Assembly: GCA_977862235.1 (NCBI GenBank)
Contig: OZ374564.1
Span: forward strand, 1,922,001-1,986,000
DNA length: 64,000 nucleotides
Direction of reading: 5' to 3'
Source of the DNA: Dudresnaya verticillata
Taxonomy: Eukaryota
Below the pieces are notes generated by a model. It was not told where the DNA came from and did no database searches. It was given only the letters and a program-made list of their open reading frames with translations. Of this stretch, positions 1 through 54,261 are shown piece after piece. The translations under genes and the position numbers were made by a program. Positions within the stretch are counted from its first letter, which is position 1, and each line of letters starts with the position of its first letter.

Positions 1-169
1 TCCGACTGGTGCACCCTTGATTTCGGAAAACGCAAGGGGGTACGCGTAAGGGCGCCGCCATCCCCGCCTCACGGCGTTCCACCTCTCGTGAGTGTGGACT
101 CGCCCGGGGATCGGTGAAATACCGTTACGGAACCCCCATTGGCTTTTCAGACCAATGATCCTATATGTG

Positions 170-4453: not shown

Positions 4454-7290
4454 TTAAGGAGATCGTCTAACTGTAACTCTAAGAGGCACGGCGACGCCGC
4501 TTCGGAGCAGGGGCAACTGTATCTTCCTCGTTGCCCCTTGACCAGTTCGTAAGTCGGGTTCTCCAGTCGGATAGGATTGGAATGCGCGGTGCGTATTATC
4601 TCCCAAGACGCGAATCGCATTGTCCATTCGCCGACGCTGACGATGGACCACTGCGCTGAGATGAATCACGTTCTCCATCAGTCCCTCCGCTAAGGTTAGC
4701 GCCTCCTGAACAGATCGTGGCAATGGGAAGCGCTGTGTACGGAAAATACCCCGTAGCACCTGTAACCCGCTTTCCGTAGCGGCTGAGTGAGCTGGAACCG
4801 TAACGGTGGAATCTTCATCTTCTTGAAACTCTACCTTCGGGGATATCGACGGCTTATCCCTAAGCCCGGCTTCGATTGAGTGCTCCGTTGAGGAAACCAC
4901 CAATACAGATGGTCCTGAATCGGGTCAAGGTACTTCCTTCCGCGGAGGTGGATTCTTGTCCTTCTCCGGAGAGGCGATATCGCTTTTCTGTAACGGTTCA
5001 GGACTTAACGAGGGGGCCAAAGGCTTGTCACCAATTTTACCGGCACTTGGGCGTATTGGCGCCACTTCCGGTATGGTGATCGGTGCCTCACTCACCACTG
5101 GTGTGGGCGCGGGTGCCAACAGAGAAGCACTTAGCGGGAGCGGTTCGGTGGTTGCAGGCATTTTCTTCGCAGAAGAAGGTGCCGCTGGCACCGTACCCGG
5201 CGCTACTTCCCAAACGGTCTGCTCCTTCGGAGCCCCCTTCTTGTATGGTGCCGCGGGCTTGGGCACCGCCACAGTAGGCGCAACCACATCTATGGGTGTC
5301 GGGGCCTTATCCGATTCCTGAGTAGTAGTCTTACGATCTACATCGCGCGATGTGGGTGTAGCGACCACCGGAAGGACTGGAGCGGCTATTTTCTCAATAT
5401 CCTCTGCCATGGGTTCGACGGGCATGACCTCCTCCTGCTCTTAGGGGCCAGCTTCTTGCGGCCTCACCGTGACGGAATCGCGTGGGTCGATTGCACGCGA
5501 ACGCCCCGCTGTCTCCTGCCAGCTCCCCCAATCTTCGGCCCCGTCAAAACCTTCACGGTACGCATCCCTTGGTGCTTGGCGAGGCTCATAACCCCGATGG
5601 GCCTGCACCTTTAAGGCCAACCATTCCGGACGGGGATCTTCTCGATGAAGGAAATATTGCTCACCCACTCCGGGCCTATGCGAGGGCACCGATAGGAAAC
5701 GGTCCTCATCCCAACTATACCCAAGAAGTCCGGAGTGCGTTGCCAATCCTGCTCTCCGTGTAAGGATAAAAGACGCTCAACCCGATGGAGAGGATACGCC
5801 GACCCCGTCACCGAATCGGCTACGCCCACTTGGCTAATTAGGGTGATCACCGTCACGGGAAGTTGAAAGATACGGCCAAAGTCTCCTCCGGGTAGGTCAG
5901 CTTCGTCACGCGGGAAGCAGGGCCAGTCGAATAACGTGGTATTATACCGCACTCCGTAGGAGGCAACCTGGAGCCACGAAATTAGCACCAGCATTGCCCA
6001 CTCCGATCGGAAGATGCGCCAAAGCACGTCGAGCTGATCTTGGTTCGGGGGACGCTCTCCGTTCGGATGTTCGCGATTCCACTACCGCTCAGTGAGCAGA
6101 TTCGCGGAGAAGTACGCCCCCACAGAAGGCGTGGGCACGGATAACCAACGGGTTACCTCGTAGCTATCCCACAACGAGGGAGCTGTGAGGTAGAGCTCAC
6201 GTCGCATCCGATACGGAAGGTGGAAGAACTCTTTGGTATTCCATGTGTGCAAGATGGGCACACCGACATGCATTCCGTCTCTGTAGCGCGTCCGCAATCG
6301 GTGTTCCGTTGCCACGTCGTCTTTCCACCCGTCGGCATAGCGGAACCAATACACCGATTGGTCATACGGTGGGTCGAAGCAGATGAACTGCAACCCGATC
6401 GGTGCACCCCGTAGACGGAACGCCGTGGCCAACAAGCGGCTCACCTTCGCCGTATACCCAACTTCCCGTGGCAACGGTACCCCAACAAATCCGAAACGGT
6501 AGTGGTGCGTTCTTGGCAGTAGCTATGTATCCATCGGCTTTCCCACACATACGCAGGGATTACTGGCGGGAATTGGGAACGAAACCAATTCTCTGGTTTA
6601 CTTTGAAGGGCTGCTCCGAAACGGCTTGCACAGTATCATCGCGCTTCCAAAATGGTTGGGTAATTATCGATGAAGTACGACACTGTCATCGGCGGTGTCA
6701 CCTTCGCCCGTTCCGCATCGGATCTCGCCGGGCGCCCAGCACGGTGATCGAAATGGTGCCCTGGCCAGTATCCACTTGGGACAGGGCCCTCACCCCTACG
6801 GGTACGCGCCATCGACATCCAAGGGCTTGAGGCCGGCGTAGTGCTTCGAGCTGGCACATGCGACTGTCTCGGAGTGTTGCCAGCAGGATGTGGGCTCGCA
6901 CCCATGCTCCGCATCGGCGTGGAGACTGGGATCGATGGCGTCCGTAACGGAATGGATGGTAGGTCCGCCAAGTTGAGCTCCTCAACACCACGTCGGACCT
7001 CCTCATCATCATCCTTGGTCGAATCTTCTCCGTCACAGTGGGTAGCTGTATTCCCTAACCGGGCGCTCCTTGTGGCTGCGCCAGCAGCAAACCGATTCGG
7101 ATCGTAGACAGACCAGCCACGGCCCGCTGATAGTGCCTGTGACGGTCCCGCTGCGGTAACGTCCGCGCGACCATGCGTCGTGCGTGGTGCCGCAACCGCA
7201 GAGGAAGAGGCCTGCGCTTGAGGCGAAGCATCCGTAACGGTAGGCGCGCCCGGTGCTCTCGTCGTCGAGCTCGCTCGGATACGCCGCATC
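4454..7290 (-). pseudogene. antisense accessory ORF of element A, fragmented, unknown function
   Basis: Fragments align by eye with antisense ORF of element C (EVGY; PSLWDSYEV~PPMWRDFEV; WRIFRSEW~WIVFFTEW), followed by Pro/Ala-rich tail; ends approximate. Confidence 0.7.
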
Positions 7291-30780: not shown

Positions 30781-31134
30781 CTAGTTTTGGTGAAGACTCT
30801 CTCGAATATTCTTCTGTACATTGACGGGGATACGCGAAGTGCTTGTTAAGCCACTAAATTCCACAAGCACCGAGCCAGCTGAAATCTTCCCGATCCATGG
30901 CGCTTGGTCATCTAAGATGTAAGGTTGATATCGCAGCCTATATGCGTCATGCCGTTCTTGCTCAATTGCTTCGTACCAACATATCTGCAGCTGCACAGAT
31001 TGTACCTTCCGGCCTCGTGTGCTCCGCAGCACCTCTTGAATCTTCGCAATGTAGAATGGGCATTCTGGAGCGCTGCCCTAATAGCGAACGCGAAATTATT
31101 GCGCGAGAATGGGACTTGTATGTCCTCCATTAAG
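30781..31134 (-). pseudogene. 3' end of Sola-type transposase gene, left of gypsy insertion
   Basis: Removing 31135-43509 joins ...DDNERDL-MEDIQVPF in frame; continues (one frameshift) PFYIAKI...ICWYE...PWIGKI...VLVEFSGLT. Confidence 0.7.
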
Positions 31135-32043
31135 TGTAGTGCCAGGGGGGGTCCCCCGTTTTCGCTTTCAAGCGTTGATATGCAGCGTCTACCGACGGAC
31201 GACCGCCAACGGCGCGCTCAACCCGTCCGCGGCGCAAACACGTCACCGACGCAAGCCGCTGGCAACTTGGGCCAGAACGGCTCGCTGGGCGTGCAGACCG
31301 CACGCCTGAACCCGGCCACTGTACGGCGCCACGCGTACGCGCATGGCGCAGTGGCGGGAACGTTCGCTGTAAGCGTGGCCCGAATCCGGATCCAATCCGG
31401 ATCCCATATCGGGATCCCATATCGGGATTAAGAGGTGTAAGGCACGCGCCTGTAAGCCTGGCGCATCCGCATCGCTGGCCCGAATCCGGACTGGATCGGG
31501 ATTGGTGCGGATCGAGATCGCTCGCGCCATGGGGCGCATGCGGCTGTAAGGAGGTAATCCACGTGTGAGTGTAAGGACTCGAGCGGGGAAGCTACGCGTG
31601 ATCTGTCAGGAGCGCGGCTGCATGACGGACGGGTCTGTCAGACGCGCCTCGGGACAACACGTGTCCCGAGTTCCCGCGTTACGCGTACATCCGCGTCGCC
31701 GCCGCTAGGTAATCCTGTACCTAGTTGATCCGTCTCAGACATCACAGTAAACCCCGGCAAGCCGGCCTTGGTCCAGACTTCCCCGTTCAGCACGCGCGTA
31801 CCCTACCGCTGCCTACGGCTAAGCGTCTACCTCCGTGCTTCCACGTCTCTACCCGTCCACGACGTGTTCCCTTTCTGTTCTCTTTTGTTCTTCTATTCCG
31901 CCTCGGGCGTTTACAGTCCGCCCAAGGCGAGCTAACCGCTCTACCGCCAGTTGCCCACGGCGAGGCCACCCATCGCCGCAGGCGTCGCTACCCACCGAGC
32001 CTCGAACTGCTCGGTGGTGCCCGTCATCGACGTTTGCACTACA
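31135..32043 (+). repeat. 5' LTR of element C (909 bp)
   Basis: About 15 substitutions versus 3' LTR by manual comparison. Confidence 0.97.
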
Positions 32044-32170: not shown

Positions 32171-34728
32171 ATGGCCTCACGACCGCCGCCGTCGCGAGGC
32201 CCCAGTTCAAGAAGACCGTCATCGACGCCGGGGAGTGTCCCCGCGTCGGAGCGGTCGCTACAGCGGATGAACACGAGGTCTGGGCGCCTCGTGAGCCCCG
32301 AGATCGCATCGGCCTTCCCGACCGGTCCAGGCCACGACCACTCCCATATATCGCTCAACAGGGGAGAAGTACCTCCCCCGCCGGTACCCGTCGTTATCCG
32401 CACCACCGTTCCCAATGAATCGGCCCTCCGAACCTACCACTCGCACGTGGATTCCGCTGACAGGGTACAAGCCGAACAGCGACCCGTCGAGGACGGAGCC
32501 CAAGCCGACATCGTCGAGGAGTAACCGGAAGATCCGGTCCACCAACCAACCTTACCCGTCAACGACGACCAGGAACGCCCTGCGGGGCGTGACGTCGTAG
32601 ACGAATCACCAATCCCAAGGGGCTGCTGCCCCTCACCCCACGGCAGTGCCGAATGTTCACCGGCCAGGCCGTTAGCGCAACCGCGCAGCACGGGAGGTCC
32701 GCCGCAGGCGTCGACACCCGCGCACACACCGCCAATGGCGTCCCCAGCATCCGCCCGCGTTGGTAATCTCACGATACCTCACGAGCGGATTCGGGAAGTA
32801 TGCGTCGCCGAAGACGATAACTTACTCGCTCGATTCGCGGAGATGCTCGACGACAATGTCGGAGGTATTTTCAGCCGTCTGCAGACGTTGGAAGAAGATC
32901 GGGACGGTGCCCTTCAAGGACTCCGTTCCGACCTCGACCGTCTGATGACGAACCCCAACCACGGGGTAGATGCCCCGCAGCCAGCGGCATTGACGGTCCA
33001 CTCTCAGTCGGAACTGAGTTCACGCGAACGTTTTCAACGATTGGCAACCCGCTTAGAGCGACTGGAAACCGCCAAATGGCGCCAAGGGCCGCCGTCCGAT
33101 GACGATAGTTCCGAAGAAGACCGTCGACGACGCAAAGACCGCAAGAGACGGGGCAAGAAACGCCGCAAGTCGCGTCATGGACGGAAGAAGAACCGTCGCC
33201 CACGAGGGGACTCATCATCATCCTCTTCAGACATGTCTAGTGACGGCAGGTCAACCGACTCTTCGTCGTCAGACGATGACGACCACGTGGCTCACGGCAG
33301 TGCAATGCGACCCCGCGGAAAGCGATACAAGGGACTGAAGGAGATAAGCCCCTCCAATCCTCTCTTCGACCAGTTGCTATCGTACCGTACATACCGTCTC
33401 CAAGACGTGGGACAGAAGCGCTCTGGACGCGAAACCGGGAAGGTCAAAGACCATATCAAGCGACTCGAGTTAACTATGAAGGACGCCGCCTTCAACGGCA
33501 GCGACCCCGTCATGGTCCTCGAATTCTTAACGCGGTTCGCGGATGAAGCGGACACGCTAGACATGAGCGAAGCACAAGCGTTCGTCGCGCTGCCGTACTT
33601 CTTAAGGGGCACGGCAGCCACGCAATTCCGCTCCGTCAAATCGACGTCCTCTCGCCACCGCGGCGGCGCATCATCGTACCCGGAGGCGGTGCACTACCTA
33701 CTTCGCACATACGCCACGCCTTCGGCGATTCGAGACGCTGTCCTCCCCCTGCGGTCGACTAGTCAGAAGCAGGGCGAAGACGAGACGACTTACGGCATGA
33801 GACTCGCCGGCGCATGTATTCGTTGCGGTAACGTTTATCCCTAATGGGAAAAGATGACACTGTTCATCGATGGGTTAGACCCGATGATCAGGTCCTTAGT
33901 GGCCCGCTTCCGCGAAGAAACGCCGAGGGCGGAGTTATCTTTTGAACGTTTAGTCCACTTCGCGCAGGACGAAGGTGACGCGCAACGCGCAAGACACGGC
34001 AGGGCCGGCTCGACGTCAGTAAGACGGGATATATTGGCCCCGGCCCAAGCCGCTCGCGCATTGCGCCCCGCCATTGGCGACAACCGAACGGTTCTACGTC
34101 AACAGACGAGGGGCACGAAGCCTGCCGCAGGCGCTATGATAGCAGAGTCCTCCGTTGAGTTCCGTGATGTCACCCGTCATGCGGACGATATGGAAACACA
34201 CGCCGATGGCGATCTCTACTTGGCCGATGAAAAAGCATCAGTGCCAACGTCAGCGTTACCAACGGACAGCTACGTCGAAGACGGGGACACAGAGGCGATG
34301 GATCCTACACTCGCCTTTGGGCGTTCCGTCGTGCCCGCGCCACGCGTCCCGTACTCGGAGTATGCCCCCACGTCCATCGGGCGAGGCCAGGTTGGCAAGA
34401 CAGGGGTCCGCTCCGTCAAGACGCTCGCAGACAGTTGATCTGTCATCAGTGTTATGCCCGTGGCCACATCGCACCGGACTGCTTCCTCCGCATGAGCGAG
34501 TATATGAAAGCGATCGCCAACTACGAAGGCTTAACAGACGCCGAGAAGGCGGGGGTCCCCGCCGATGCGTACACTCGGTACAAGGAACGCGCTGCGCGCG
34601 AAGCAGCATGCCGTGCAGCACGACCACCGTCGCCACGAGGCGGACCTATGCCGCATGCAGCAGAACGTCATCCGGCGGTGGTCAGTCGCTACACAGTGCC
34701 GCTACAACCGCCGCAGGCGAAAAACTAA
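32171..34728 (+). pseudogene. gag: gag of element C (two stops, one frameshift)
   Basis: FNGSDP...FLTRF capsid-like region, CHQCYARGHIAPDC zinc knuckle; stops at 32522 and 33842. Confidence 0.85.
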
Positions 34729-37700
34729 TAAGGGTACCAACTCCTGACACTGGGGTGTCGCACCAAGCAGAGAGGCTTCCGCCTCGAGTGCTGACACGGA
34801 AGGAGGGCCCGAACGTAGTTAACAAACACGCCGATGGGCGGGTAGACTCGTCACAGACGTCCTTAAAGCGCCCCTGGCGTAGGTACCAGCCCCCACAAGC
34901 CCGGGGACAGTTGTTCGTAATGGCCAAAAGGAACTACAAAGTATACGCCGATCTAGGCGTAACTGTAGGTACCTTGGCACGTAAACTTACTGTCCTCGAC
35001 ACGGGGGCTGGTCCGAATTTCATCCGTATTGACGATATTCCGCTAGAAGCGCGATTACGGATCGTATCCAAGAGTCTCCCCGTCATATCAGACGCTAACC
35101 ACAAGGCGATTCAGACCCGGGGCACTATCGACTTAGTCGTACGTCTCGGACGAAGGGTCGTCAAGTTGGAGTTGATCGTCTGTGAACGGCTCGCTGCGCC
35201 GGTTATACTCGGTTGCGACTTTTGCGGCCGCTTTGTCGAAGCGATTTATCCGCGGAGTCGCGAGATTGAGCTGGACGACGGCACCCGTTTCCCTATAACG
35301 CGCCTCCCGCTGCGCCGGCCCCCGTCGTACCCCCCGTTGCCAACGGAACAAGAGTACGGCACGGCCGAAGGGCGAACGTCGCCCAAGATACGCGTTGCGG
35401 AACGAACGATCATCCCGCCGCAGGCGCAAAAGTGGATCTCGTTAACGACCGAGCGAGCAGGGGTCATTACCATCCAACCGTTTGGAACGTTATATGATCG
35501 GCAAGCTTTGGCCGTTACTAACGGAGTCGCTCAAGTAGAGCCGCTGAGAGTGTTCCGGATTCTCGTCGCAAACTTCTCCCCGCGCCCGCAAGCGCTCGTC
35601 AAAGGACAAGTCGTCTCTACCGCGTTGCCACATCCCACAGCAGTGTTCCCCAGTCACATAAGTCTGGCCGATGTCCTAGGTATCACCGAGGAGCAGGCAA
35701 CGGAGGAGGAAGCGAATCAAGATTTTCGTTTTCAAACGAAGGATGGGGTAACGGCGCAGCCGGATACATTCGCTAAGTCGATCGAAGCAACTGTAGCTAA
35801 ACCTCCGTCAGTGGACGAGTTGGACCTGAGCCATCTCTCAGCCGAACATCAAGGACGGCTGAAGGAGATGCTGCGCAGGTACTCGTCGATGTGGGACGGT
35901 TCATTAGGAGAAATCGCAACCACGGAGCACTATATTGACTTGCTCCCCGGCTCCAGGCCGATTTCATCCCCGCCCTACCGCGCTGGCCCAAATCAAAGGC
36001 AACTCGCTCAAGCGAAGGTGGATCGCATGTTGCGTCAGGGGGTTATCGAACCCGCACAATCGCCATGGGCGTCGCCGGTCGTCTTCGCTCCCAAGAAGGA
36101 CGGTACACTCCGCTTCTGCGTTGACTACCGTCGCTTGAACGCGGTAACGGTACGAGATACGTACCCTCTCCCGCGAATCGACGAATGTATTGACAGCCTA
36201 GGGGAAGCGAACGTCTTCACCACCCTAGACTGCAATAGTGGTTACTGGCAGGTGCTCATCAATCCGCGGGATCGCGACAAGACGGCGTTCACGTGCCATG
36301 CCGGATTGTTCCGCTACAAGCGTATGCCCTTCGGACTTACTAACGCACCGGCCACATTTCAACGGACCCTCGATATCCTGCTTGCTGGTTACAAGTGGCG
36401 CTCATGCCTCGTCTACCTTGACGATGTGATCATCTTCTCTAACGATATCGACAGGCACTTTCCTCATGTTGACGAGATCCTTTCGACCTTGCATCGGGCC
36501 GGGGTGACATTGAAGTTGACCAAGTGCGACTTCTTCACCCCGACCGTCAACTATTTAGGCCATGTGATACGTCCGGGACGATTGGAAGTAGACCGTACGG
36601 TCACAGCCGCGTTACGCGAAGCCAAGCATCCGCGGGACCAGAAGGAATTACGGAGCTTTCTCGGATTGTGCACCGTCTATAGACGGTTCGTATCGCGATA
36701 CGCACACGTCGCCGCTTCCCTCAACAAATTGTTGAGGAAAGAACAAGACTTCCGGTTACAACCGTTCACCGAGGAGCAAGCTCGGGCATTCAGCACGCTT
36801 GTCGAAGCGGTGACTCACCCGCCCATCTTGGCGTTGCCACAGCAAGGACTACCGTACTCCGTCGATTGTGACGCGAGCGAATACAAGTTGGCTGCGCACT
36901 CTTCCAAACGCAGCCTGACGGCGAACGGAAGCCGCTTGGTTTCTGGTCACGCTCGTTAACCGCTCCGGAGCGCAACTACTCGGTATCCGAAAAGGAATGC
37001 CTAGCGGTAGTCTGGTCGATCACGACGTTGAGACCGTACCTTCAGATGGAGTCCTTCGTAGTCCATACGGACCATTCGTCGTTGAGGTGGCTCATGGAAA
37101 TCAGCGACCCCTCAGGACGGTTAATGAGATGGCGCCTTTGCCTCTCTGAGTTCGACTTCGTCGTGAAGTATAAAAAGGGGTACCTGAATACTCAGGCAGA
37201 TGCCCTCTCACGTCTACAGACGAACGGCGAAACTGTCGAGCCAATCGACGATGATATCCCGTGTTACCACGGGAGCTGCGTCAAAGACGAGGACCACTCG
37301 TCAGAGGACGGCTACGCTCACGCAGAAAGCGGTACGTCAAACGCCAAGAGCGAAGTCGATTTCTCCGAACGAGACTTCGAGGAGTTTGACCAAATGTTGG
37401 TTACCAGCGCGCCACCGGCGGATGAAGTGCTCCTCCGCCAATTGACGCATGAAGAGTTGGTGCATGCTCAGGGCAGTGACCAGTACTGTTCCGAGATCCG
37501 GAAACGTCTAGAGGACGGAAACAACCTACCGTTTGCAACGGACGAACAGGGACTATTCGTTCGGACCGTCGAGGCCCGACCCCAAGTCGTTGTACCATCC
37601 GCGTTACGCGTTCGATTGCTCCACCTCCGGAATCATGCTAAATTAGCAGGACATCCCGGAGGGCGGAAGCTGTACCATACGCTTCGACGCGAGTATTATT

Positions 37701-39465
37701 GGCTGTCTATGTCGGTGGACTGTTACGCGACCGTCCGCAATTGCGTTACTTGCGCGAAGAACCGGGTACTGATGCGAAAGAACGTGAAGGAGATGAAACT
37801 GTTCCGAGCAACCGAGCCTCTCGAGTTTGTGTCCATCGACATACGCGGGGAGCTCATACGCACTAAGCGGGGGAATAAGTTCTTACTCGTCATCGTGGAC
37901 CGGTTCTCAAAGCTGGTCCGGACGGTTCCCTTACGTAAGATTACGGCATTGGAAATCGCTAAGGCGTTTGTTCGACACTGGGTGTTTGTGTATGGCCCAC
38001 CTAAGAAGCTGTTGTCCGAAAATGGACCGCAATTTGTAGCCAAGTTGTTCCAGGACGTCTGCCGCATCTTAGGGGTGGAGAATCTCATCACTATTAGGTA
38101 CCATCCGCAGTGTAACGGCCAGGTGGAACGATTCAATCGAACCATCCTCGCCTCCCTGCGTCACTACGTAGCAGACCACCCCAGGGACTGGGATTTGTTC
38201 ACCGATGCCCTGACGTTCGCGTACAATACGCAACTGCACTCGTCTACCCACCTCGCTCCATTCGAGTTGGTGCTATCTAAGCCCCCGCGGGCATTGTCGC
38301 TGGAAGCGGAGCCGTCGCTTGAAAGCGTGCCCACTGCCGGACAGTACTACACCAAATGGCGAACCTCGCTGTCCGCATTGATGGGAACCGCTAACGCGTC
38401 GACGCGAAAACGCAGGCGCGTTACAAACGGAACTTCGATACTCGTCTGAGGAAATCGAAGGAGAACATCGCTGTGGGAGACTTCGCATTCGTGCGGAAGG
38501 AATACTTCGCCCGCGGCGGGAGCACCGATCGCTCAGAGCGCAAGCACAATCTCGCACCTGTAGCGGATGGACCGTATCGAGTAACACACGTCGACGACGG
38601 GACAGTCACCGTCGACAAGGGACGTGGCGAACGCGAACGCTTATCCCGAGACCGCGTGGTATGGGCGCCAACCCCACCAGGGCACACCGCCCCCGCAACC
38701 GTGCAACCACCGGGACCACCTGACGTACCGGGACCCACGGCCCCCACGTCAACCGACGAAGGAGTAGGAACCCCAGACACGCCACAGGCGGACCCGGCAG
38801 GAGGCACAGGGACACCGCGCAGCACGAACGACTCGCAGGAGCAAATGAATGCAACGCCACGAAGCCGCGGGTTAGCAGAGCTCTCGCCCTTTGCCGCTAA
38901 CCCCGACGACGGTGTCTCGCAATCCGTCTCCGACGAGGAGGAGGGTCCCGGCATCCGTACGCGAATGGGACACGCAACCTCGGCTTCGCCGGCTACCAAG
39001 GTAGGTCCCGCTTCGAGCGCATCGACTGACGATAAGGAAGACCGCGCTAATGCGAAAGATGCCGCTAGAAGCGAGGAACCAGTACGCAAAAGCGACGAAC
39101 CACAAACCGCTACGCAAGCGCTCGGGGCACCGACCCAGCGCCTCAGGCGATCGACTCGTCGAGTACGATTTGCCGAACCGGTGCAGACGCCCATCACGCA
39201 AGGAAGTGAGCCGCCCAAGGCGTTAGAACGACAGGATCCCACGTCTACCGCTGCAAGCGAGAAGGAGTACGTTATCGAACGGGTTGAGTCGCACGCACAC
39301 GCGGAAGACGGTGAGATCCTCTACCGCGTCAAGTGGTTTGGATACCCCGCTTCAGCGAATACCTGGGAATCCGTGTCCAGTCTACCGCGATCGCACGTCG
39401 TGCGGTATCACCGTCCGAAGCACACGCGTCTACCGCCAAACATCGACGACGCGCAACTCGGATAG
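34719..39465 (+). pseudogene. pol: pol of element C (PR, RT, RNase H, IN, GPY, chromodomain), frameshifts near 36890 and 38400
   Basis: LDTGAGPNFI, YLDD, HHCC (HAKLAGHPG...CVTC), YHPQCNGQVERFN, DGPY, EYVIERV...YRVKWFGY...NTWE. Confidence 0.97.
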
Positions 39466-39831
39466 CCCTAGTCAGGGTGGGCGCTGGAAGCGGAACACAC
39501 GCCACATCCTCATACGGATTGACGCAGACGTGCACTCGTTACGGACGACTGGGGCTGTAATCAACCAGATCAAGGACGATTGGGTTGGCAACACGCGAAT
39601 AGGCAACCCTCGTCGTTGACTCGTCGTTGACAACGGTCAAGTTTATTCGGGCTTCACAAGCGAGGGTAACCCCCGTGCCCGCATGACCTTTCACTACGAC
39701 CTACGTCGTGAGACGCGACACTAACCGTCTATGACGTATGAATCCCTCGCTCGCCGCCTCACCACGGGGCAGGCAAAGCGACACCACACGCGTTCTCGCG
39801 TTTGCTAACCGTTCTTAACGATCCAACAACG

Positions 39832-42132
39832 CTACGGCTTTTTCGTCGCAGACGGCCCAAGTGGGGCATCATCCCCGACGCCATTGGCGGATTCTCTTAA
39901 CGCCTCTTCGTAGAGGTCGTCTTCCGTCACAGACGGTGCGCTCGCAGCAGGGGCAGGAACGGACCGCAAGGGACCCGCCACAACCACTGCTGTCGAAGTC
40001 GCGACATCCGCCGCTGGCGACGCACCTGTCTCACAATCCGCCTTAGGCGACGACTGTTCGTCAACCGCCATAGGCGCAACGTTAGAGTCATTATCCGCCT
40101 TAGGCGCTACACCAGGAAGCTCACTCGCCTTTGGCGGTGGAGCATCCTCAACCGCCTTGGGCGAAGTCGACGGCCCCGGCACCTCCGGTGACGGGACCGC
40201 ATTAACCGCCAAAGGCGTTGAACGATCAACATCCGTCACCGACGAAGAGGCCACTGGAGCCTGCGGAACCGCCGTAGGCGCTACCACCGCAGTCGCCTTT
40301 GGCGGACTTTTGTTAGCAACGTCAGTGGACGCAATAGCGGACGGACCCGCACAACCCGCCTTAGGCGACAAAGGCTTTTTCGCCACTCCGTCATTAGACG
40401 CCACACCTTCGTCGTTAGAAGGCGCAGTCGCAACGACGGTCGACGCCGGAACCGCAGCAACGCTGGGCTGCAGAGTAGCCAGAAGCGAGTGCCCGAGGGG
40501 CGTCGTGGAGGTTCCGCCCGACCCGTCAGTGACGACACCGGTGGCTCGCAGGAATGCGAGCACCGTGCGGCGCTGCTCCTCAATCCATTCGGGCACTGCG
40601 GGAGGGCGATTCGCACCGTCAGCGACGTTGGACAAGCCGCCTTGAGGCGTAACTGCAGAACTCGCCATGGGCGCAGCCATGATGGCATCACCATCACCGT
40701 CATTGACGGGAGCCGAGAGATCCAACGGCACAACCGACGGCAAGCCAACAGGCACCACAGCCGACGGTCCTACCGCCGCTGGCGAAATCGTCGCGGGGGC
40801 TGTCGCCCCCGCAGAAAGCTCAACCGCCATAGGCGTAACGACGTCTGTCCCAGACGAGTTAACCGGTCCGCTGTTAGCGTGGAACGCATCCTCCTCCGCC
40901 ATCAAGGCGCTCAAGTGGGGTGGGAAATCCCCCGCAAAGTCGCAATTCTTGCGCAACCCACGTGGGTGATTCGCTGGCGTGAAGCGGTCCGTACGACGAT
41001 GGCTCTCAGCGATGTTCTCCGTCGTAAGACGTTTGGTCCACGGGTTGTACCATACCCAATCGCCACAGGCGGAATGATTCCTACTCATCGCGTAACGCGG
41101 ACGGTTTGCCTTATGGCGCCGGTTTCCCGGCGGCACAGCTGGCGGGTCGTCCCAGTTGACGTTATCCGCCACATGGCGTAAATCCCAGAACTCTTGGCAG
41201 TTCCTGGCACCACCCAACACTTCGGTCAAATCAAGCCCACCAAGGAGGCTGACTACGCGTGGCGGCACATAATAGAGGCGGAAGGTGTCATACACCTCCC
41301 ACATCCATGCGTAAGTTACGTTGACGACCCACTCGGTGAAAAACACGATCCAACATCGGGAGTACGGATCCGTCCGCAACTCGGAGCCTATATACGTGAC
41401 ACACGGAGGCAATTCAGCCGCAAAACCCTCGCAGACCTCAAAGTCCCGCCACATCGGCGGGACGCGAATGAAGCAATGCGGCAACTTTTCCCGCTCAATG
41501 CGATCGACTTGCGTATCTTGATACGGTACAAAAACGCCTTTGCGGCGGCGCGTTTCGCATTCTCAACGGACGCAGCGCTCCCAATAGAAGGTGCCCGTCC
41601 TATGCAAGTATCGGAAATCCGCTTTCAAGCGTACACCAAGGAGGTTAGCCTCCTGAAGCACCCGCGGCTCAGCCGAAACAGCCACATGGCTTAACGACAA
41701 CGTCCCAAGACGGTCCCCATAACCAACCTCGCCATTTGTGCGGTACTGCCCTGCGTCAAATTCAAAGACGGTGGGCGTCAATACCGACCCCGGGTAGCGG
41801 GTAAACCGCCGATACACGTCAACGAGGAAACGCGCATGTGCATCTGCACGCGTCTGGCCGGCGGCAATACGCAGCCAACCCCTCGGAATGGCGCACCGAT
41901 GGCGCCACTCGTTCGTCCACACGACGGCCAGGGGCAACTCCCCTGGCAAAAATCCGTTCACAGCGTAATGGGTGATGAGATCCTCGTGTCGCAGGGCCTC
42001 CTGGTCGAACCAGGGGGCCCGCGAGAATAATCGCGCATCGTTGCGGGGCGTCCTCCCGACAAAGTCGAAGGGGGACGGATACACCGGCGCCGCCGAAGGC
42101 GCAGCCACTTGCAGGCCATTGAACTGCGCCAT
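39832..42132 (-). CDS. antisense accessory ORF of element C (767 codons, one in-frame TGA at 41563-41565)
   Basis: ORFs 41563-42132 and 39832-41484 share a frame; Trp/aromatic-rich N-terminal domain, Pro/Ala/Ser-rich tail; homologs in elements A and D. Confidence 0.8.
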
Positions 42133-42584
42133 TACGTCTGAGACGTTGAGTAATCACACGCCACTGGCGAACTTCACGCGATACGTCAACGACGGTCTCG
42201 GACTCCGAAGTCGAGTCAACTACGCCAAAGGCGGAAGCAAACAAGGCGCACGTCAACGACGTTGGATTGGACAACGCCGAAGGCGGACCTCAAAGAAACG
42301 CCCTAGGCGATAAGCGCACACACGCGTGCACAGGATACGACGTCAATGACGGGGTTTCACGCACGCCACTGGCGAAGTTAGTCAACAACACGTCTTCGAC
42401 GGGAGTTGTTGCTGCGCCAACGGCGGGTGGGCAACTGAACGTGCGTCTTTGACGGGGCTCAACTAACGCCAAGGGCGGGCAAACGCAGACGCGAAGACGC
42501 GGGTGACCGACACGATCGGCACTGGAAGAGACGCAGATGCGGGAAAGCAGGCAGGCTGAAGCAGGTTGACGTGTTCGCGTTTTC

Positions 42585-42595
42585 GGAGGGGGTCG
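42585..42595 (+). promoter_or_regulatory. polypurine tract of element C
   Basis: GGAGGGGGTCG directly before 3' LTR. Confidence 0.75.
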
Positions 42596-43504
42596 TGTAG
42601 TGCCAGGGGGGGTCCCCCGTTTTCGCTTTCAAGCGTTGATATGCAGCGTCTACCGACGGACGACCGCCAACAGCGCGCTCAACCCGTCCGCGGCGCAAAC
42701 ACGTCACCGACGCAAGCCGCTGGCCACTGGGGCCAGAACGGCTCGCTGGGCGTGCAGACGGCACGCCTGCACCCGGCCACTGTACGGCGCCACGCGTACG
42801 CGCATGGCGCAGTGGCGGGAACGTTCGCTGTAAGCGTGGCCCGAATCCGGATCCAATCCGGATCCCATATCGGGATCCCACATCGGGATTAAGGGGTGTA
42901 AGGCACGCGCCTGTAAGCCTGGCGCATCCGCATCGCTGGCCCGAGTCCGGACTGGATCGGGATTGGTGCGGATCGAGATCGCTCGCGCCATGGGGCGCAT
43001 GCGGCTGTAAGGAGGTAATCCACGTGTGAGTGTAAGGACTCGAGCGGGGAAGCTACGCGTGATCTGTCAGGAGCGCGGCTGCATGACGGACGGGTCTGTC
43101 AGACGCGCCTCGGGACAACACGTGTCCCGAGTTCCCGCGTTACGCGTACATCCGCGGCGCCGCCGCTAGGTAATCCTGTACCTAGTTGATCCGTCTCAGA
43201 CGTCACAGTAAACCCCGGCAAGCCGGCCTTGGTCCAGACTTCCCCGTTCAGCACGCGCGTACCCTACCGCTGCCTACGGCTAAGCGTCTACCTCCGTGCT
43301 TCCACGTCTCTACTCGTCCACGACGTGTTCCCTTTCTGTTCTCTTTTGTTCTTCTTTTCCGCCTCGGGCGTTTACAGTCCGCCCAAGGCGAGTTAACCGC
43401 TCTACCGCCAGTCGCTCACGGCGAGGCCACCCATCGCCGCAGGCGTCGCTACCCACCGAGCCTCGAACTGCTCGGTGGTGCCCGTCATCGACGTTTGCAC
43501 TACA
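42596..43504 (+). repeat. 3' LTR of element C (909 bp)
   Basis: Direct repeat of 31135-32043. Confidence 0.97.
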
Positions 43505-47051: not shown

Positions 47052-47769
47052 CATGCCCGACGCGATTGCGGTGTCCGTACGCCGTTGGGCCGACCGTCCG
47101 TAACGTGTTCACGCGCGCCAACAGCGGTTGGGACTGCCAGTCGGTCGACGTCTTATTACACGCTCCGAGCGAAAAAGGGGCTCGCCGCCCTTGCACCACA
47201 CGACCACCCTCCAAAACGCGAACACGTCCAACCGTCAACTTGCTGCCGCGCGCGTTGCCTCCTCGTCCTTGCCATCTCATGCACCCGTCTTGGTGTGCCC
47301 GCGTGTGCGTTTGCGACTTCGGCTGTGCCGTACTAACTCCGCTCGTGTTGCATGCTGCGTGCAGTTGCCCTGCCCCGACATCACCGCCCGTGGCGCCTTC
47401 CGATTCCCGTCGTTCACGTCGTTCAGGTTGCCTCCTCTTCCGGCGTCGCAACTTAATCGCCATTGAGGTTAACCTTTTACCGTATCGCCTGTGGCGTTGC
47501 AACTGAACGTTGTTGACGTAGATCTTTTCATCTCCTGTGGCGTCGAACCATAATCACCATTGACGTACGTAGTGAGACCTTCGGCATCGGCGCTGAACAG
47601 CAGTCGTCTTTGACGTTCTTGCATACATAGCCAGTGACGTTAACGTATCCTCGCATTCGCAATTATGCCGGTATTCAATGGCATGAAGGTGGTGGCGCCC
47701 TCTGCAGCGCCCGTATACGCATCGCCAGTCGACTTCTTCGGTAATAATCCTCACGATCATGCGTATTTA

Positions 47770-48960
47770 CTCGCACGGGCCCCTGGTTCGACCAGAAGGC
47801 TTTGCGCAGAGACGAATTAGTTGCTCATTACGCTACTGGCGGATTGTTGCCAGGGGGCCTGCCCCTTGGCGTCGTCTGGATGTTGCATTAGAAATTGCGC
47901 TGTACCGTTGCTCCGGAATGGCTTTGGGTCCGAGCTGGGAAGTCGCGTGCGGATGTCCAGGCTCGTTTCTTCTCAGACCTCTACAGAGATTCCCGTGTTA
48001 CCCCGGATCGGCGTTAATGCCGATCGTCTTCAACTTCGACGCCGGGCAATATCGGACAGACGGCGAGGCCGAATATGGTGGTCAGTTTGGAACATCATCG
48101 CTCAAATACGTGAGCGTGTCGATTGAAACTAGCGTTTTGCAAGAGCCTTACCTCTTAGATGTACTGCTTGAGAGCCGATTTTCGTTATCTGCATCGGACA
48201 GGTACGTTCGTTTGGGAGCGCTATGTCCGTTGAGAATGTAAAACACGTCGCCGAAAGGGCGTGTTTGCACCTTATCAGGACATACAGGTCGACCGTATTG
48301 AGCGAAGCAAGTTACCCTACTGTTTTGTGAAGATGCCGCCTGTGTGGCGTGAGTTCGATATATGCGAAGGTTTCGCAACAGAGCTCTCCCTTGTGCCACG
48401 TATCTTGGTTCCGAACTGATGAAAGACCCGTATTCGAGATATTGGGTAGCGTTCTACACCGAATGGGTGGCCAACGTAGCATACAAATGGTTATGGGAGG
48501 TGTATGAAACCTTCCGCATGCACCACTTGCCGCCGCGTTTAGTCCCCCTTCTTCGTGGCCTCGACTTAGTCGAAATACTCGGTGGTTCACGGAACTGCCA
48601 GGCGTTCTGGGACTTGCGCGCTGTTGTGGGTAGCATTGATTGGACCAACCCGGTTGCCGTGCCGTTAGCGAACAACCACCGCAAGGCGAATCGTCCGCGT
48701 TACTCAATGAGCCGTACTCATTCCGGCGGTGGCGATTGTAGTTGCTCCATCACCTGCGGCGGGTACTCTAACGACGACGCGAAAGGCGGTTGATGAGTTT
48801 TCCCCTACGCCTGTGGCGCCTGCCCGATCACTCCGGCAGTTATAGTGGCGTGGGCCTTGCGGTCCGTCCCTGCTCCTGCCGCGGGTTTACCATCGACGAC
48901 GGAGGACAACCTCTATGAGGAGGCGTTGCGCGAGAATGATGCGGTTGTCCCAGCCAACTC
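47770..48960 (+). pseudogene. antisense accessory ORF of element D, degraded, internally deleted
   Basis: FDAGQYRTDGE, FRYLHRTGT, DPYSRYWVAFYTEWV, HRKANRPRYSMSR match ORF of element C. Confidence 0.85.
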
Positions 48961-50390
48961 GTCTGCGAAGAAAGATACTTGATATCGTTTTTAGAAACGG
49001 GCGGACGCGAGAGTGTGTACTACGACACTCTTTGTCTCCTCTTCGGGCTCGAAGAGCAGGGGTAGTTCCCATTCGTCGTTGACGGTTAGAATCGCAGTCT
49101 TTGTGACGTATTAGCTGCAGTGGTCGTTAGTAAGGGTGCTGGGTTGTCCCCACTTGTTTAGTACAGTAAACGTGACCATTCTCAGTGTCTTTCTGCGTCG
49201 CGATTGGCGTCGGGCTTAGGGTGGTCCCACTTCGGATTCGCGTCATTTCCTCGATCCCCGCTACAGTAGCGTTGGAGTGTAATGGTACTAATAATAGACG
49301 CGAGTTCCGTTGTGGCGGCGTTGGTTGGTAGTATTCCGCTGTAATAGCGTTGCTGGTTCGTTTTGCATTTGCGGTAGCGGGCGGCGATACCCTACTCTTT
49401 CGTTGTAAAGCGATGATAATCGTCGAGAGACGTGGTTTGGGGAGACCCATTTCCGCTGACTTAGCGTTTTTGTCGTGCGTAGGCCACCCTAGGCGTGGTT
49501 GAGTGTAGATGGGGATGGTTTGTACCCTTATGACCCCTCATTTCGTTGCTAATACAGCGTATTGTTTTGTGTGGCGTCGTGGACGAAGGTCGCAGCGATG
49601 GTGAGGTAGATGCTTAGGCGACTTGGGGTTGCTGCTATTTTCGTCTCTGACATTCTCCTTCGGAGGTGGGGAATGGTCGCCGTCGCGCGACTGTGGCCCT
49701 GACGGCCACGCCCAGCGTTGCAGTCATTGCGCGATTTGTTGGCGCGACGTGCACGGAACCCACGACAACTGCGTCTTCAACCACATTTCCCCCCTTTTCG
49801 GTGGGTTCGTCGGCGCGCCTTTTCCTTGCGAGTCACGTCGGAGACGTAGGGCGCGAGTCTTCTTGCGCGGCAATGGCCTGTAGGGTGACGGTTCCAGGGA
49901 CTTAGCCGTGGTGTGAACGTTTGCCCCGACGTCGGAGACGGTTGTTGCGCGGTTCCACTTGCGCCTGTCGTCGCTGGTGCTCGTAGCACCTGCTTAGGCA
50001 TTTGGAATGATTGTGTTCATCGCGTCGTTGATTTTTGGGCAGTGCGCCTCGCCGTGTTTGTCGATTAAAAATTGTCCGATCGCTTTTTGATCCTATGACC
50101 CGATTGGTGGGGTGTGTACCTCGATGTGCGATCTGGATCCACTGTCAGCCACCCATCTGTCTAGGGTTCCTGTATGGGGGCCCCTTCGAGATGCCCGTTT
50201 GCGCGGCCGTCTATGGCGCAATGGTTTGCGTCCATGTGCGTCCATGACGTGCACACGTGTCTGTCGCTACAGCGGGTGCGGCCGCGTCCACACACCATGA
50301 ACTGGGCTTCCACGCCTTTGGCGACCGTAACTCGCGTATGCGATCTCGATCATCATTCCGTTCGCTGCCAGCGTTCTTCCCTGATTAGGG

Positions 50391-53300
50391 TTATCCGTGC
50401 CGAGCGCCGTCGATGTTTGGCGGTAGACGCGTGCGTTTCCGACGGTGGTACCGTACAACGTGTGATCGCTGCAAACTGGAGACTGGCTCCCATGTGTTGG
50501 CTGAAGCGGGGTAGCCAAACCACTTGATGCGTTATAGGATCTCGCCATCTTCCGTATGCGCGTGCAACTCGATTCGTTCGATAACGTATTTCTTCCCGCT
50601 CACAGAAATAGACTTGGACTTGTGCCCTTCCAGCGCCTTTACCGGTTCGTCTCGTTGCGTGATGGGCGTCTGTACCGGGTCGGCGAATCGTACTCGATGG
50701 GTTGAGCACCTATGGCGCTGGCCTTGGGCCTCCGACGCTCGTTCAGCGGTTACCGTTTTGCTGCATCTTTGGACGAGTCTATCGCTTGCGTCGCGCTAGT
50801 TCTTGTTCGCACGGTTTTCGTCATCAGAATCCGACGCGCTTGAAGCGGGGCCAACGTCAGTCGTCGGCTTTGCCGCAGTGGCGTGTTCCAAAAGAGTGTG
50901 GATCCCCGGACTTCGCTCGTCGTCAGAGACGGATTGCGATGAGTGTTCGTGGGTGTCGACCGCGAATGGTGTAAGCTCAGCTAGCCCAAGGGTTCTTGGT
51001 GTCGCAAGCACGCGCTCCTGAGAACCTTCCGCGAATCTGGTTGTCCCTGCGTCATTTTCCGGGTCTGCAGTCGGTGTAACAGGGTTAGCCACACCCTCGT
51101 CTGTTGACGTGGGGGCGGGGTTGCCTTGTTCCGAGGGCGGACCTGGTGGGAGTACGGTAAGTGAGCCATCTGCCCTGGTGGGGTCGGTACCCACACCACG
51201 CGGTCTCGCGATAAACGTTCTTGTTCTTCATGGCCCTTTTCGACGGTCACTGTATCGAGATCGACGTGTGTCACTCGGTACGGATCGTCCGCCATCGGTG
51301 CCAGTTTTTGCGTCCGCTCTGCGGGATCGATGCTCCGGCCTCGGGCGACGTATTCTTTTCGTACGAATACGAAGTCGCCTACGGCGATCTTGTCCTTCGA
51401 ATTCCTCAGACGGGTGTCAAAGTTCCCTTTGTAACGTGCTCGCGTGTTCTCTAGGGATGCTTTAGAAGTCCCCATCAGTGTGGCCAGCCAAGTTCGTCAC
51501 TTGGCGTAGTATTGCCCGACGGATGGTACGCTTTCAAGCGACGGTTCCGCTTGGAGCGACAACGGTCGTGGTGGCTTAGACAGCACCAACTCGAACGGGG
51601 CAAGGTGGGGAGAGGAATGCAGCTGTGTGTTGTACGCGACGGTCAGGGCGTCCGTGAATATATCCCAGTCCCTTAGGTGATCCGCTACGTAGCGTCGAAG
51701 CGAGGCGAGGATGGTATGATTGAATCGTTCCCCCTGGCCATTAAAATGCGGGTGGTGCTTGGTAGTGAAACGCTGCCCCACTCCCAAGAGGCTACAGATG
51801 CTCTGGAAACGTTTAGCCACAAATTGTGGTACCTTGTCGGACAGTATCTTCTTGGGGGCCATACACAAACAACCAATATCGAACAAACGCATTAGCGATT
51901 TACAATGCCATATTCTTACGCAGGGGAACCGTCCGGACCAGCTTGGAAAAGCGGTCCACGATGACGAGTAGGAATTCATTTCCCCGCTTCGTGTGTATGA
52001 GCTCGCCAAGGATGTCGATCGACACGAACTCGAGGGGCTCAGTTGCCGGGAGCAACTTTAGTTCCTTTTCGTTCCTTCGTAACAACACGATGTTCTTAGC
52101 GCAAATTACGCAGTTGCGAACGGTCGCATAACAGTAAACGGTCATCTTCGGCCAATAATATTCGCTTCGAAGCGTATGATATAACTTCCGTCCCCCTGGG
52201 TGCCCTGACAATTTGGCGTGGTGCCGGAGGTGGAGTAAGAGAGCGCGTAATGCGGATGGTACGACCACTTTCGGGCGGACTTCCACTGTTCGGACCCACA
52301 GGTCCTGTTCATCCGTTGCGAACGGAAAGGAGCTCCCGTCATCGAGACGTTTCCGGATTTCGGAACAATGTTGGTCATTGCCTTGAGCATGTAGTAACTC
52401 TTCGTGCGTCACTAGACGTAGGAGTACCTCGTGTGCCTGTGGCGTGTTGTTGATAAACACTTAGTGGAACTCTTTGAAATCTCGTTCGGGGAAGTCGACC
52501 TCGCCTTCGGCGTCTGACAAATCATCTTCCGACGTATGGTGTCCGTCTTCAACGTAGCTTCCGTCATAGCATAGTATGTCATCGTCAATTGGTTAGAAGG
52601 ATTCCCCTTCGTCTGTAGACGCGAAAGGGCATCTGCCTGAGTATTCAGGTACCCCTTTTCGTATTTCACGAAGAAGTCGAACTCGGAAAGGCGAACTCGC
52701 CACCGCATTAACCGTCCAGAGGGGTCGCTGATTTCCATCAGCCACCTCAACGATGAATGATCCGTGTGAACGGTGAATGACTCCATCTGGAGGTAAGATC
52801 GCAACGTCATGACCGACCATACTACTGAGAGGCACTCCTTCTCGGAGACCGAGTATTTACGCTCTGGAGCGGTGAGTGAGCGAGACCAGAAGCCGAGTGG
52901 CTTCCGCTCCCCGTCGGGCTGCGCTTGAAAGAGAGCGCAGCAGACTGGATACTCGCTACCGTCACAACCAACGGAGTAGGGTAGGCTCTACTGTGGTAAC
53001 GCCAGAATAGGCGGGTTGGTCACAGCCTTGAAAAGTGTGCTGAATGTTTTGGCTTGTGTCTCATCGAACGGTGACAACCGGAAGTTTTGCTCCTTCCTCA
53101 ACAACTTTTAAGGGTTACAGCGACGTGCGCGCATTGCTACACAACCCATCTGTAGACATTGCACAGCCCGAGAAAGCTCCGTAGCTCCTTCTGATGCCGT
53201 GGATGCTTGGCTTCGCGTAGCGCGGCAGTGGCAGTTCGATCAACTTACAGGCGTCCTGGACGTATGACATGACCCAAATAGTTGACGGTCGGGGTGAAGA

Positions 53301-53800
53301 AGTCACACTTGGTCAACTTGAAAGTCACCCCGGCCCGATGTAAGGTCGATAGGATCTCGTTAACGTGACGGAAATGGCTACCGATGTCGCTTGAGAAGAT
53401 GAATATGTCGTCCAGATAGTCGAGGCATGAACGCCACCTGTAAGCAGCGAGCAGGATGTCTAACGTCGATTGAAACGTATCAGGCGCGGTTGTGAGACCG
53501 AAAGGCATACGCTTATTGCGGAGCAGTCCTGCATGGCACGTGAAAGCAGTCTTATCGAGGTCTCGCGGATTGATCGGCACCTGCCAGTACCCACTGTTAC
53601 AGTCTAGGGTGGTGAAGACGTTTGCCACCCCTAGACTGTCAATGCACTCGTCGATACGCGGAAGCGGGTACGTATTCCGTACGGTTTACTGCGTTTAAAC
53701 GGCGATAGAATACCCAAAGTGGAGGGTCCCGTCCTTGTTGGGGACGAAGACCATTGGTGACTCCCACGGCGACTGTGCAGGTTCGATGACCCCTTCACCT
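50391..53800 (-). pseudogene. pol: pol of element D
   Basis: FTTLDCNSGYWQ, YLDD, HTDHSSLRW, HHAKLSGHPG...CVIC, chromodomain remnant. Confidence 0.93.
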
Positions 53801-54261
53801 GGCCTACGACGAGACGGGGAACTGAGAGGTGGTTGCAAAACGCGTGTCGTTGGGCCAATGAACGTATCAAGATCTCAATCTCAACGGTGTATAACTTTGG
53901 AAACAGCATCGCTGTACAATTCTCCACTGAGCCGGGTCGCTCAGTGTTAAGAAGGGGGCCATGTGGTACAACGAGCGCTGGGGCGCTGTAAGGATCCACG
54001 TGTACACGCGACGCCTGTAAGGAGTGGGATGCACAAATGATATGGCTACGCGCCATTGGATAATTAACTACGTGAGCGCTGTGTGCGCTGAGTGGCTGAT
54101 ACGAGCCATACTTTCGCGGCTATTTTGGCCCCGGCGTCTGCAGTCACAGCGTCTTACAGTTTCGCAATGCGCGCACAAGTGGTACGTCCGCTCATTCCTA
54201 TTTCCAATCCTTATTTTACTGTTAGTGTACAGTGTTAGTTCACTGTTATCGTTATAGCTCT

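What the first reader, a model, noticed from the sequence alone, without database searches (positions are those of the whole stretch)
39832..42132. Conserved antisense protein family in three chromovirus elements
A long antisense ORF lies between pol and the 3' LTR in elements C, D (47770-48960) and the distant A (4454-7290). Shared blocks: G(F/Y)xPG, EVGY, PxxWxx(F/Y)EV, Wx(V/I)FxxEW, then a Pro/Ala-rich tail. Protein-level conservation across divergent families implies selection. Antisense extra ORFs are known in some plant gypsy lineages, but I do not recognise this domain. An anti-silencing or targeting role is speculation.
Basis: partly seen in the sequence, partly recalled or inferred. 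Interest (0 to 1): 0.78.

Follow-up and report, generated by a model that had tools for sequence, protein, structure and literature searches.

The report
Seaweed retrotransposons' hidden antisense protein family
Three jumping genes in what is likely a red seaweed carry, backwards behind their enzyme genes, a conserved gene of a large unnamed protein family that is likely a nuclear helper of the element, and two copies share a stop codon followed by a predicted RNA hairpin that would likely be read through to ration the protein.

Summary
Chromodomain-bearing Ty3/gypsy elements C, D and A each carry an antisense gene between pol and the 3' LTR. C versus D gives dN/dS 0.15, close to pol. A profile search found 600 protein clusters at E<=0.001, one of them in Gracilariopsis chorda. 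None of 56 long members tested has a credible Pfam domain. A belongs to the family (E 3e-22). A relative folds confidently into one ~390-residue domain (pLDDT 92), followed by a low-complexity tail. Selection holds on both sides of it, and a shared 11-bp hairpin follows it. The family is open at this site in 95 of 149 members. Programmed readthrough in the C/D lineage is my preferred reading (~0.6); coincident decay remains possible. The function is untested; a nuclear, nucleic-acid-acting accessory regulator is the best guess (~0.45). Antisense extra ORFs are a known class, but I found neither this family nor this internal stop described.

The parts
39832..42132 (-). Antisense accessory gene of element C, 766 codons: conserved domain (about codons 10-400), Pro/Ala/Ser/Thr/Val-rich tail, acidic end motif also kept in D
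   Evidence: family profile E 1e-127
41563..41565 (-). In-frame TGA at codon 190 of C, shared with D
41527..41559 (-). Predicted 11-bp hairpin starting 3 nt after the TGA in C
47665..48982 (+). Antisense gene of element D: decayed, frameshifted, middle deleted
48231..48269 (+). TGA (48231-48233) and predicted hairpin (48237-48269) in D
4454..7289 (-). Antisense gene of element A, broken; family domain at 5728-6486
31135..32043 (+). 5' LTR of C (TG...CA; target-site duplication TTAAG at 31130-31134 and 43505-43509)
42596..43504 (+). 3' LTR of C, 98.4% identical to the 5' LTR (15 differences)
32525..39465 (+). gag and pol of C (RT, RNase H, integrase, chromodomain PF00385); one stop in gag, frame breaks in pol
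42133..42595 (-). Leader between the 3' LTR and the antisense start codon; no upstream ATG in C (two in D)
39642..39647 (-). AATAAA 185 nt after the antisense stop in C; not found at a like place in D or A, so weak
50363..53830 (-). pol remnant of D (RT to chromodomain), 76% DNA identity to C
148..4378 (+). pol of A with chromodomain; RT 66% identical to C

Best explanation
This is a third, antisense gene of chromodomain Ty3/gypsy retrotransposons, under purifying selection and belonging to a large, likely red-algal protein family; its product is predicted to be one globular domain plus a disordered tail, likely works in the nucleus on the element's own nucleic acid as an accessory regulator, and in the C/D lineage is likely rationed by occasional readthrough of an internal UGA. 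Step by step: (1) a coding gene under selection, carried by the element: shown, ~0.95; (2) transcribed as its own antisense mRNA from the 3' LTR side: inferred from anatomy and from maize Grande, ~0.7; (3) acts in trans on element DNA or RNA to promote expression or counter silencing: inferred, ~0.45; (4) in C/D most ribosomes would stop at codon 190, in the middle of a core helix, giving a fragment unlikely to fold, while a few would read through with help from the 3' hairpin and make the full protein: inferred, ~0.6. The confidence given is for step 3.
For: Selection: dN/dS 0.149 overall, 0.18 before and 0.12 after the TGA. Family: 600 clusters at E<=0.001, 235 at <=1e-10. The one named cluster among 21 proteins looked up is four G. 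chorda hypothetical proteins on four contigs, >=90% alike, as expected for a mobile element. Structure: model of P0006, the closest relative (37% over 377 aa), has pLDDT 92.4 and pTM 0.90. Soluble protein: a 19-residue hydropathy window reaches 1.8 in 4 of 56 long members, C peaks at 1.55, and 1 of 56 has a hydrophobic N-terminus. An Arg-rich helix is strongly conserved (R173 77% basic, R176 86%, R179 88%; also R117 96%, R160, R164). A two-helix tail motif was found in 9 non-seed members. Precedent: Grande GENE23 is nuclear and has its own promoter (PMC7264820); VANC is a transposon-encoded anti-silencing protein (PMC5735166); red-algal Plavaka transposons carry accessory genes with chromatin-related domains (10.1101/2025.02.11.637652). 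Readthrough: same TGA in C and D at dS 1.7. There is no CpG decay to explain it: CpG o/e is 1.3 and 0 of 23 CGA codons of C's pol are stops in D. Chance of a coincident stop is about 0.5-5%. The hairpin is the only site among 345 windows with this energy and five pairing-preserving substitutions, one cluster in 1133 pol windows comes close, and 8 of 3000 synonymous recodings match its energy. It forms on the antisense strand only. The column tolerates many residues, Trp the commonest (30 of 106), and lies inside helix 167-182 of the model.
Against: Nothing here tests function, location or expression. The domain's median net charge is 0 (52 members). Only 16 of 56 long members have a basic cluster in the tail under a loose pattern, and C has none there. 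Genomic context was seen for three copies only, so the other members are not shown to lie antisense in LTR elements. Readthrough rests on two decayed copies. The family is open at the site in 95 of 149 members, and A is open too. The hairpin has no pair changed on both sides, its thresholds were set after seeing it, and its 3-nt spacer is shorter than the 6-9 nt in the examples read in PMC3159437. The context UGA-GAA is not one of the three standard types there. C itself has other lesions (a stop in gag, frame breaks in pol), so one stop in it is expected by decay. Tca2 shows that a stop plus predicted structure need not direct readthrough (PMC2194720).
Confidence: 0.45

Rival explanations
1. 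On the stop: C and D each lost the gene by independent nonsense decay at the same codon, and the hairpin is chance. The gene family is real, but there is no recoding.
For: Both elements are decayed; 2 of 26 Trp codons of C are stops in D; the family and A are open at the site; only two copies; no double compensatory change.
Against: Coincidence is estimated at 0.5-5%. The hairpin stands out independently and is strand-specific. A stop inherited in a dead gene is excluded by dN/dS 0.12-0.18 on both sides. A conversion tract could be at most 14 nt.
Confidence: 0.33
2. On the stop: it is bypassed by another route, namely RNA editing, a tiny intron or selenocysteine insertion.
For: The stop itself is paired at the foot of the predicted structure, and a Cys follows two codons later in both copies.
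Against: No SECIS by Rfam or by motif scan. Cys is not among the six commonest residues at the column. Red algae have few or no selenoproteins (PMC7539508, passages). Codons on both sides evolve as coding sequence, leaving no room for an intron.
Confidence: 0.07
3. On function: the protein is a cytoplasmic or particle-associated factor, such as an RNA chaperone, a suppressor of RNA silencing or a scaffold for virus-like particles.
For: Long low-complexity tail and a small helical motif suited to scaffolding; Arg- and Trp-rich core; most members lack a clear basic tail.
Against: No GW/WG repeats (0-5 per protein); the characterised antisense aORF products are nuclear (PMC7264820).
Confidence: 0.3
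4. On function: the ~390-residue domain is an enzyme acting on nucleic acid or chromatin, with an acidic active site.
For: It is large for a simple binder and has near-invariant acidic residues: D112 95%, E121 99%, E175 94%, E216 94%. Red-algal transposons carry enzyme-like accessory genes (10.1101/2025.02.11.637652).
Against: No His or Cys reaches 50% conservation; no Pfam or PDB sequence match; whether the acidic residues cluster in space was not checked.
Confidence: 0.2
5. The ORF is a captured host gene or a shadow of sense-strand constraint, with no role for the element.
For: Context is known for three copies only.
Against: Only this frame shows low dN/dS; same position and strand in elements whose RTs are 66-81% identical; 600 diverse clusters.
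Confidence: 0.03

Closest known systems
Antisense additional ORFs between pol and the 3' LTR (aORF-3R): maize Grande gene23, rice RIRE2, Silene Retand, bean PvRetro13, Botrytis Boty (PMC7264820, main text read; PMC11963269, passages)
   Same: Position, antisense orientation, conservation comparable with pol, no known function, proposed regulatory role.
   Different: Unrelated sequence (no TRP28/PF04195 or other Pfam match in 56 members). The host elements carry a chromodomain, whereas Retand is non-chromovirus. The host is likely a red alga. One lineage has an internal conserved stop.
VANC anti-silencing proteins of VANDAL DNA transposons (PMC5735166, passages)
   Same: Transposon-encoded accessory protein with conserved domain and variable regions; model for the proposed mode of action.
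   Different: No DUF1985 match; LTR retrotransposon rather than Mutator-like; no tandem target array in C's internal region; activity untested.
Stop-codon readthrough signals with 3' structure: alphavirus and furovirus UGA plus stem-loop, MuLV, Drosophila examples, SEPN1 (PMC3159437, passages); SIRE1 and Tca2 named as retroelements with an in-frame stop between ORFs (PMC2194720, passages)
   Same: In-frame UGA with coding selection on both sides and a 3' hairpin.
   Different: Here the stop lies inside a predicted folded domain of an antisense accessory gene, not between gag/pol or pol/env. The context is UGA-GAA, the spacer is 3 nt, and only two copies are known.
Gracilariopsis chorda hypothetical proteins PXF40140.1, PXF49255.1, PXF40362.1, PXF47852.1
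   Same: Same family (P0011: 36% identity to C over 392 aa).
   Different: Annotated as unnamed host proteins; open across the site of C's stop; genomic context not seen here.

Membership tests
aORF-3R class | ORF between pol and the 3' LTR, antisense to gag-pol | tested here: met
   C, D and A
aORF-3R class | Conserved like the element's other proteins | tested here: met
   dN/dS 0.149 vs 0.09-0.28 for pol
aORF-3R class | Present in most copies of the family | tested here: inconclusive
   3 of 3 chromodomain-bearing elements in the window; element B (no chromodomain found) has no hit; no genome-wide view
aORF-3R class | Antisense transcript from its own promoter | not testable with these tools
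   Only anatomy: ATG-free leader and an AATAAA in C
Retand TRP28 proteins | TRP28 domain PF04195 | tested here: not met
   No match in window ORFs or 56 long members
Retand TRP28 proteins | Non-chromovirus host element | tested here: not met
   PF00385 at the end of pol in A and C; D 77% identical to C there
VANC / plant mobile domain proteins | DUF1985 or PMD sequence match | tested here: not met
   No Pfam match; a by-eye likeness of two short Trp motifs is recalled, not tested
VANC / plant mobile domain proteins | Shared fold | tested here: inconclusive
   No library of predicted cellular structures was on hand
VANC / plant mobile domain proteins | Sequence-specific anti-silencing activity | not testable with these tools
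   Needs expression assays
env-like ORFs | Sense orientation and transmembrane segment | tested here: not met
   Antisense; hydropathy >=1.8 in 4 of 56 members, 1.55 in C
Fungal antisense Cys-cluster genes (label from earlier scan notes) | Conserved six-cysteine cluster | tested here: not met
   No Cys column reaches 50%
Chromovirus (host elements) | Chromodomain at the integrase C-terminus | tested here: met
Chromovirus (host elements) | RT groups with reference chromoviruses | not tested
   No reference RT set was available
Programmed stop-codon readthrough | Conserved in-frame stop with coding selection on both sides | tested here: met
   2 of 2 copies of the subfamily; the wider family is open
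Programmed stop-codon readthrough | Standard type I-III context | tested here: not met
   UGA-GAA; exceptions such as UGA-G exist (PMC3159437, passages)
Programmed stop-codon readthrough | Conserved 3' RNA structure | tested here: inconclusive
   5 one-sided and 0 two-sided changes in 11 pairs; stands out
Programmed stop-codon readthrough | Readthrough product demonstrated | not testable with these tools
   Needs a reporter, ribosome profiling or mass spectrometry
Selenoprotein | SECIS in the 3' UTR | tested here: not met
   (models may miss algal forms)
Selenoprotein | Cys at the same column in relatives | tested here: not met
   W 30, F 23, N 9, G 8, D 8, L 5 of 106

The most novel reading that the evidence does not exclude
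Red-algal Ty3/gypsy elements carry a lineage-wide accessory protein with a fold of its own that switches off host silencing of the element, and one lineage doses it through programmed UGA readthrough inside the folded core. That would be recoding within an antisense accessory gene, and a first handle on transposon silencing in seaweeds.
Probability: 0.2. Interest if true: 0.85.

Novelty: new variant of a known kind. Interest (0 to 1): 0.63.

Why it matters
Antisense extra genes of LTR retrotransposons are a long-standing puzzle with no established function. This family is large (600 clusters), has natural intact members in a sequenced seaweed and gives a confident model, so it is directly testable. 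It also suggests that some 'hypothetical proteins' in red-algal annotations are retrotransposon genes. How red seaweeds silence transposons is described as open (10.1101/2025.02.11.637652, passages), and an element-encoded counter-factor would point to the host pathway. If the shared stop is programmed, it would extend retroelement readthrough from gag/pol and pol/env junctions to dose control of an accessory gene.

Tried and rejected
Word-seeded protein searches with C alone found nothing; the window alignment found one relative. The four metagenome loci are chance matches to one 8-residue pattern. Scans of viral contigs (65, 126) and prokaryotic genomes (66, 127) found no relative. No genome is held for the window. 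No sequencing run was listed, which is no evidence on expression. The ESM Atlas gave no usable hit for a piece of A or for P0002, which shows neither absence nor novelty. The BurrH match at E 7e-9 is a sum over repeats, best single stretch E 4.7: rejected. The five-row fold was useless (pLDDT 35). Fold searches with the good model found no Foldseek match at E<=0.001 in PDB or BFVD and a best Z of 2.2 among 48,161 chains. The model is over 400 residues and no predicted cellular structures were searched, so a new fold is possible but not shown. PDB sequence searches with the family profile gave a best E of 0.35. The tail motif matched no family consistently, is weak in C (E 0.02) and was not found in A; one search used the wrong frame and is void. 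My early by-eye guess that A has Trp at the stop column was wrong: the profile puts Thr there. CpG deamination as the cause of the shared stop was rejected. A loop-downstream pseudoknot was rejected by inspection, as the register differs between C and D. N-terminal start points of the short family members are spread out and say nothing on the stop. The tree is the quick one only, 71 rows with C and D as sisters on a long stem. No complex was predicted. Paper searches listed no description of an antisense ORF in red-algal LTR elements. RepBase and closed supplements, such as the curated Bostrychia Gypsy family, could hold one.

Full report
Setting. The window is a nest of decayed Ty3/gypsy elements. 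C is nearly complete: LTRs 31135-32043 and 42596-43504 (98.4% identical, target duplication TTAAG), gag, and pol ending in a chromodomain. D lies on the minus strand, is 76% identical to C in pol and has lost gag. A is on the plus strand with an RT 66% identical to C. The host is inferred to be a florideophyte red alga: the only named family members are from Gracilariopsis chorda. No genome was held.

Observation. C's antisense frame runs from ATG 42132 to TAG 39832, 766 codons, with one internal TGA at codon 190. D's copy (47665-48982) is frameshifted and lacks the middle but keeps the acidic end motif. Over 352 aligned codons dN/dS is 0.149 (bootstrap upper bound 0.22; dS 1.69 is near saturation), against 0.09, 0.12 and 0.28 for three parts of pol. 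Four of the other five frames give 0.97-1.77, and the in-register opposite strand gives 0.34. A's match was borderline from window data: 0 of 300 and 0 of 200 shuffles reached it, but a C+D profile gave 0.3 bits. It became clear with relatives: P 5e-4 with one added and E 3e-22 with the 149-member profile, next unrelated tile E 0.92. That profile holds no window sequence, though its members were found with a query that included pieces of A.

The family. An alignment of window pieces found one open relative, P0002 (34% over 282 aa). A profile including it found 600 clusters at 50% identity with E<=0.001, of which the best 150 were fetched. The closest full-domain match to C is 37% identical, so C's own subfamily is not represented. 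I looked up 21 members. One cluster is four G. chorda hypothetical proteins; the rest come from ENA, JGI or Logan assemblies and are unnamed, called hypothetical, or in two short fragments carry an unrelated automatic label. Of 56 long members scanned, none reaches a Pfam cut-off; four have weak unrelated hits. The profile matches no PDB sequence. The layout is a conserved domain of about 390 residues, a low-complexity tail, and in part of the family a two-helix motif near the end (9 non-seed members; weak in C, absent in A). AlphaFold2 on P0006 with 149 rows gives pLDDT 92.4 and pTM 0.90 for one mostly helical, loop-rich domain. This is a model of a relative, not of C. Fold searches are given under Tried and rejected. 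Conserved positions are Trp, Tyr, Pro, Arg and acidic residues; no His or Cys reaches 50%. There is no general transmembrane or signal segment.

The shared stop. C and D carry TGA at the same codon within 14 identical bases. Selection is as strong after it (0.12) as before it (0.18), so it was not inherited in a dead gene. CpG decay does not explain it. From the observed decay of D and the LTR divergence of C, a coincident stop has a chance of about 0.5% (Trp codons only) to 5% (any nonsense path in pol and this gene); this was noticed after the fact. Three bases later both copies can form the same 11-bp hairpin, with five substitutions that all keep pairing through G-U and none on both sides. 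The opposite strand cannot form it. No other site among 345 windows of the gene combines this energy and this number of such changes. One cluster among 1133 pol windows comes close, and 8 of 3000 synonymous recodings reach its energy. Against this, 95 of 149 relatives and A are open at the site, the context is not a standard readthrough type, and the spacer is short (PMC3159437). In Tca2 a similar-looking signal failed in a reporter (PMC2194720). The site lies inside helix 167-182 of the model, so a product ending there would probably not fold. If readthrough is real, it would set the dose of full protein rather than make two isoforms. Selenocysteine is unlikely (PMC7539508). My odds: readthrough 0.6, coincident decay 0.33, other bypass 0.07.

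How it most likely works. Shown: an element-borne coding gene under selection, in a large family. Inferred: a separate antisense mRNA from the 3' LTR side (C has an ATG-free 468-nt leader and a downstream AATAAA, the latter not shared with D). Also inferred: a soluble protein that acts in trans on the element's DNA or RNA through the Arg-rich core, with the tail recruiting host factors. The parallel is with nuclear Grande GENE23 and with VANC. The evidence for this step is thin: net charge is neutral and most members lack a clear nuclear signal. I give it 0.45, a cytoplasmic or particle role 0.3 and an enzyme 0.2.

Relation to what is known. It is a member of the antisense aORF class by position, strand and conservation. 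It is not TRP28, not env-like, not a Cys-cluster gene, and not VANC or PMD by sequence. Paper searches listed nothing on such a gene in red algae, and search 54 nothing on readthrough inside an antisense retrotransposon gene. The library lacks most subscription papers and RepBase. Earlier scan notes hold other antisense genes (fungal Cys-cluster, animal transposase-like) and gag-pol readthrough cases, but nothing like this sequence; they are unchecked and give context only.

What I read. PMC7264820: parts 1-2 of 3 (whole main text). PMC11963269, PMC2194720, PMC3159437, PMC7539508, PMC5735166, PMC6338049 and bioRxiv 10.1101/2025.02.11.637652: passages only. All others: search listings. No supplements were read; the Bostrychia supplement could bear on novelty. 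That Trp is a common residue inserted at UGA rests on passages of PMC2194720 and on recall.

Verdict. A real, previously unnamed accessory protein family of likely red-algal retrotransposons: a new variant of a known kind, with a credible but two-copy case for internal stop-codon readthrough. Interest 0.63.

Noticed in passing
window 22650-23948 (-): 432-aa frame with an N6-adenine methylase domain (PF01555, E 1e-10); may be a PAG2-like accessory gene of red-algal DNA transposons (bioRxiv 2025.02.11.637652, passages).
   Followed up: no
window 43724-44860 (-): DUF7869 frame (E 4e-43) right beside C's 3' LTR; looks transposon-related.
   Followed up: no
window 60580-61404 (+): DDE_Tnp_4 nuclease frame.
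   Followed up: no
window 18979-20022 (-): Ion-transport protein fragment (PF00520) next to a decayed RT.
   Followed up: no
window about 10100-14800 (-): Element B, RT about 69% identical to C; no chromodomain and no family hit found; a 225-nt duplication at 10200-10592.
   Followed up: partly
window 55430-56377, 58034-58551, 54262-54900, 8159-8634: Further LTR-like copies related to C's LTR; A's 3' LTR end is 74% identical to the LTR upstream of D over 250 nt although the pols are distant.
   Followed up: partly
window 8288-8364: 77-nt near-perfect palindrome inside A's 3' LTR region.
   Followed up: no
window 20738-20923: Tandem array of 3.8 copies of a 49-nt unit.
   Followed up: no
window 42133-42600 and 39466-39831: GTTGAC is enriched on both sides of C's antisense gene, in opposite orientations (8.5 and 5.5 per kb vs under 1 in coding parts); a candidate binding motif, no null computed.
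   Followed up: partly
window 34143-34438: gag and pol of C overlap in different frames with no standard slippery heptamer found.
   Followed up: partly
Many family members lie on contigs only slightly longer than the ORF (2.3-3.4 kb), which would fit transcripts or collapsed repeats.
   Followed up: no
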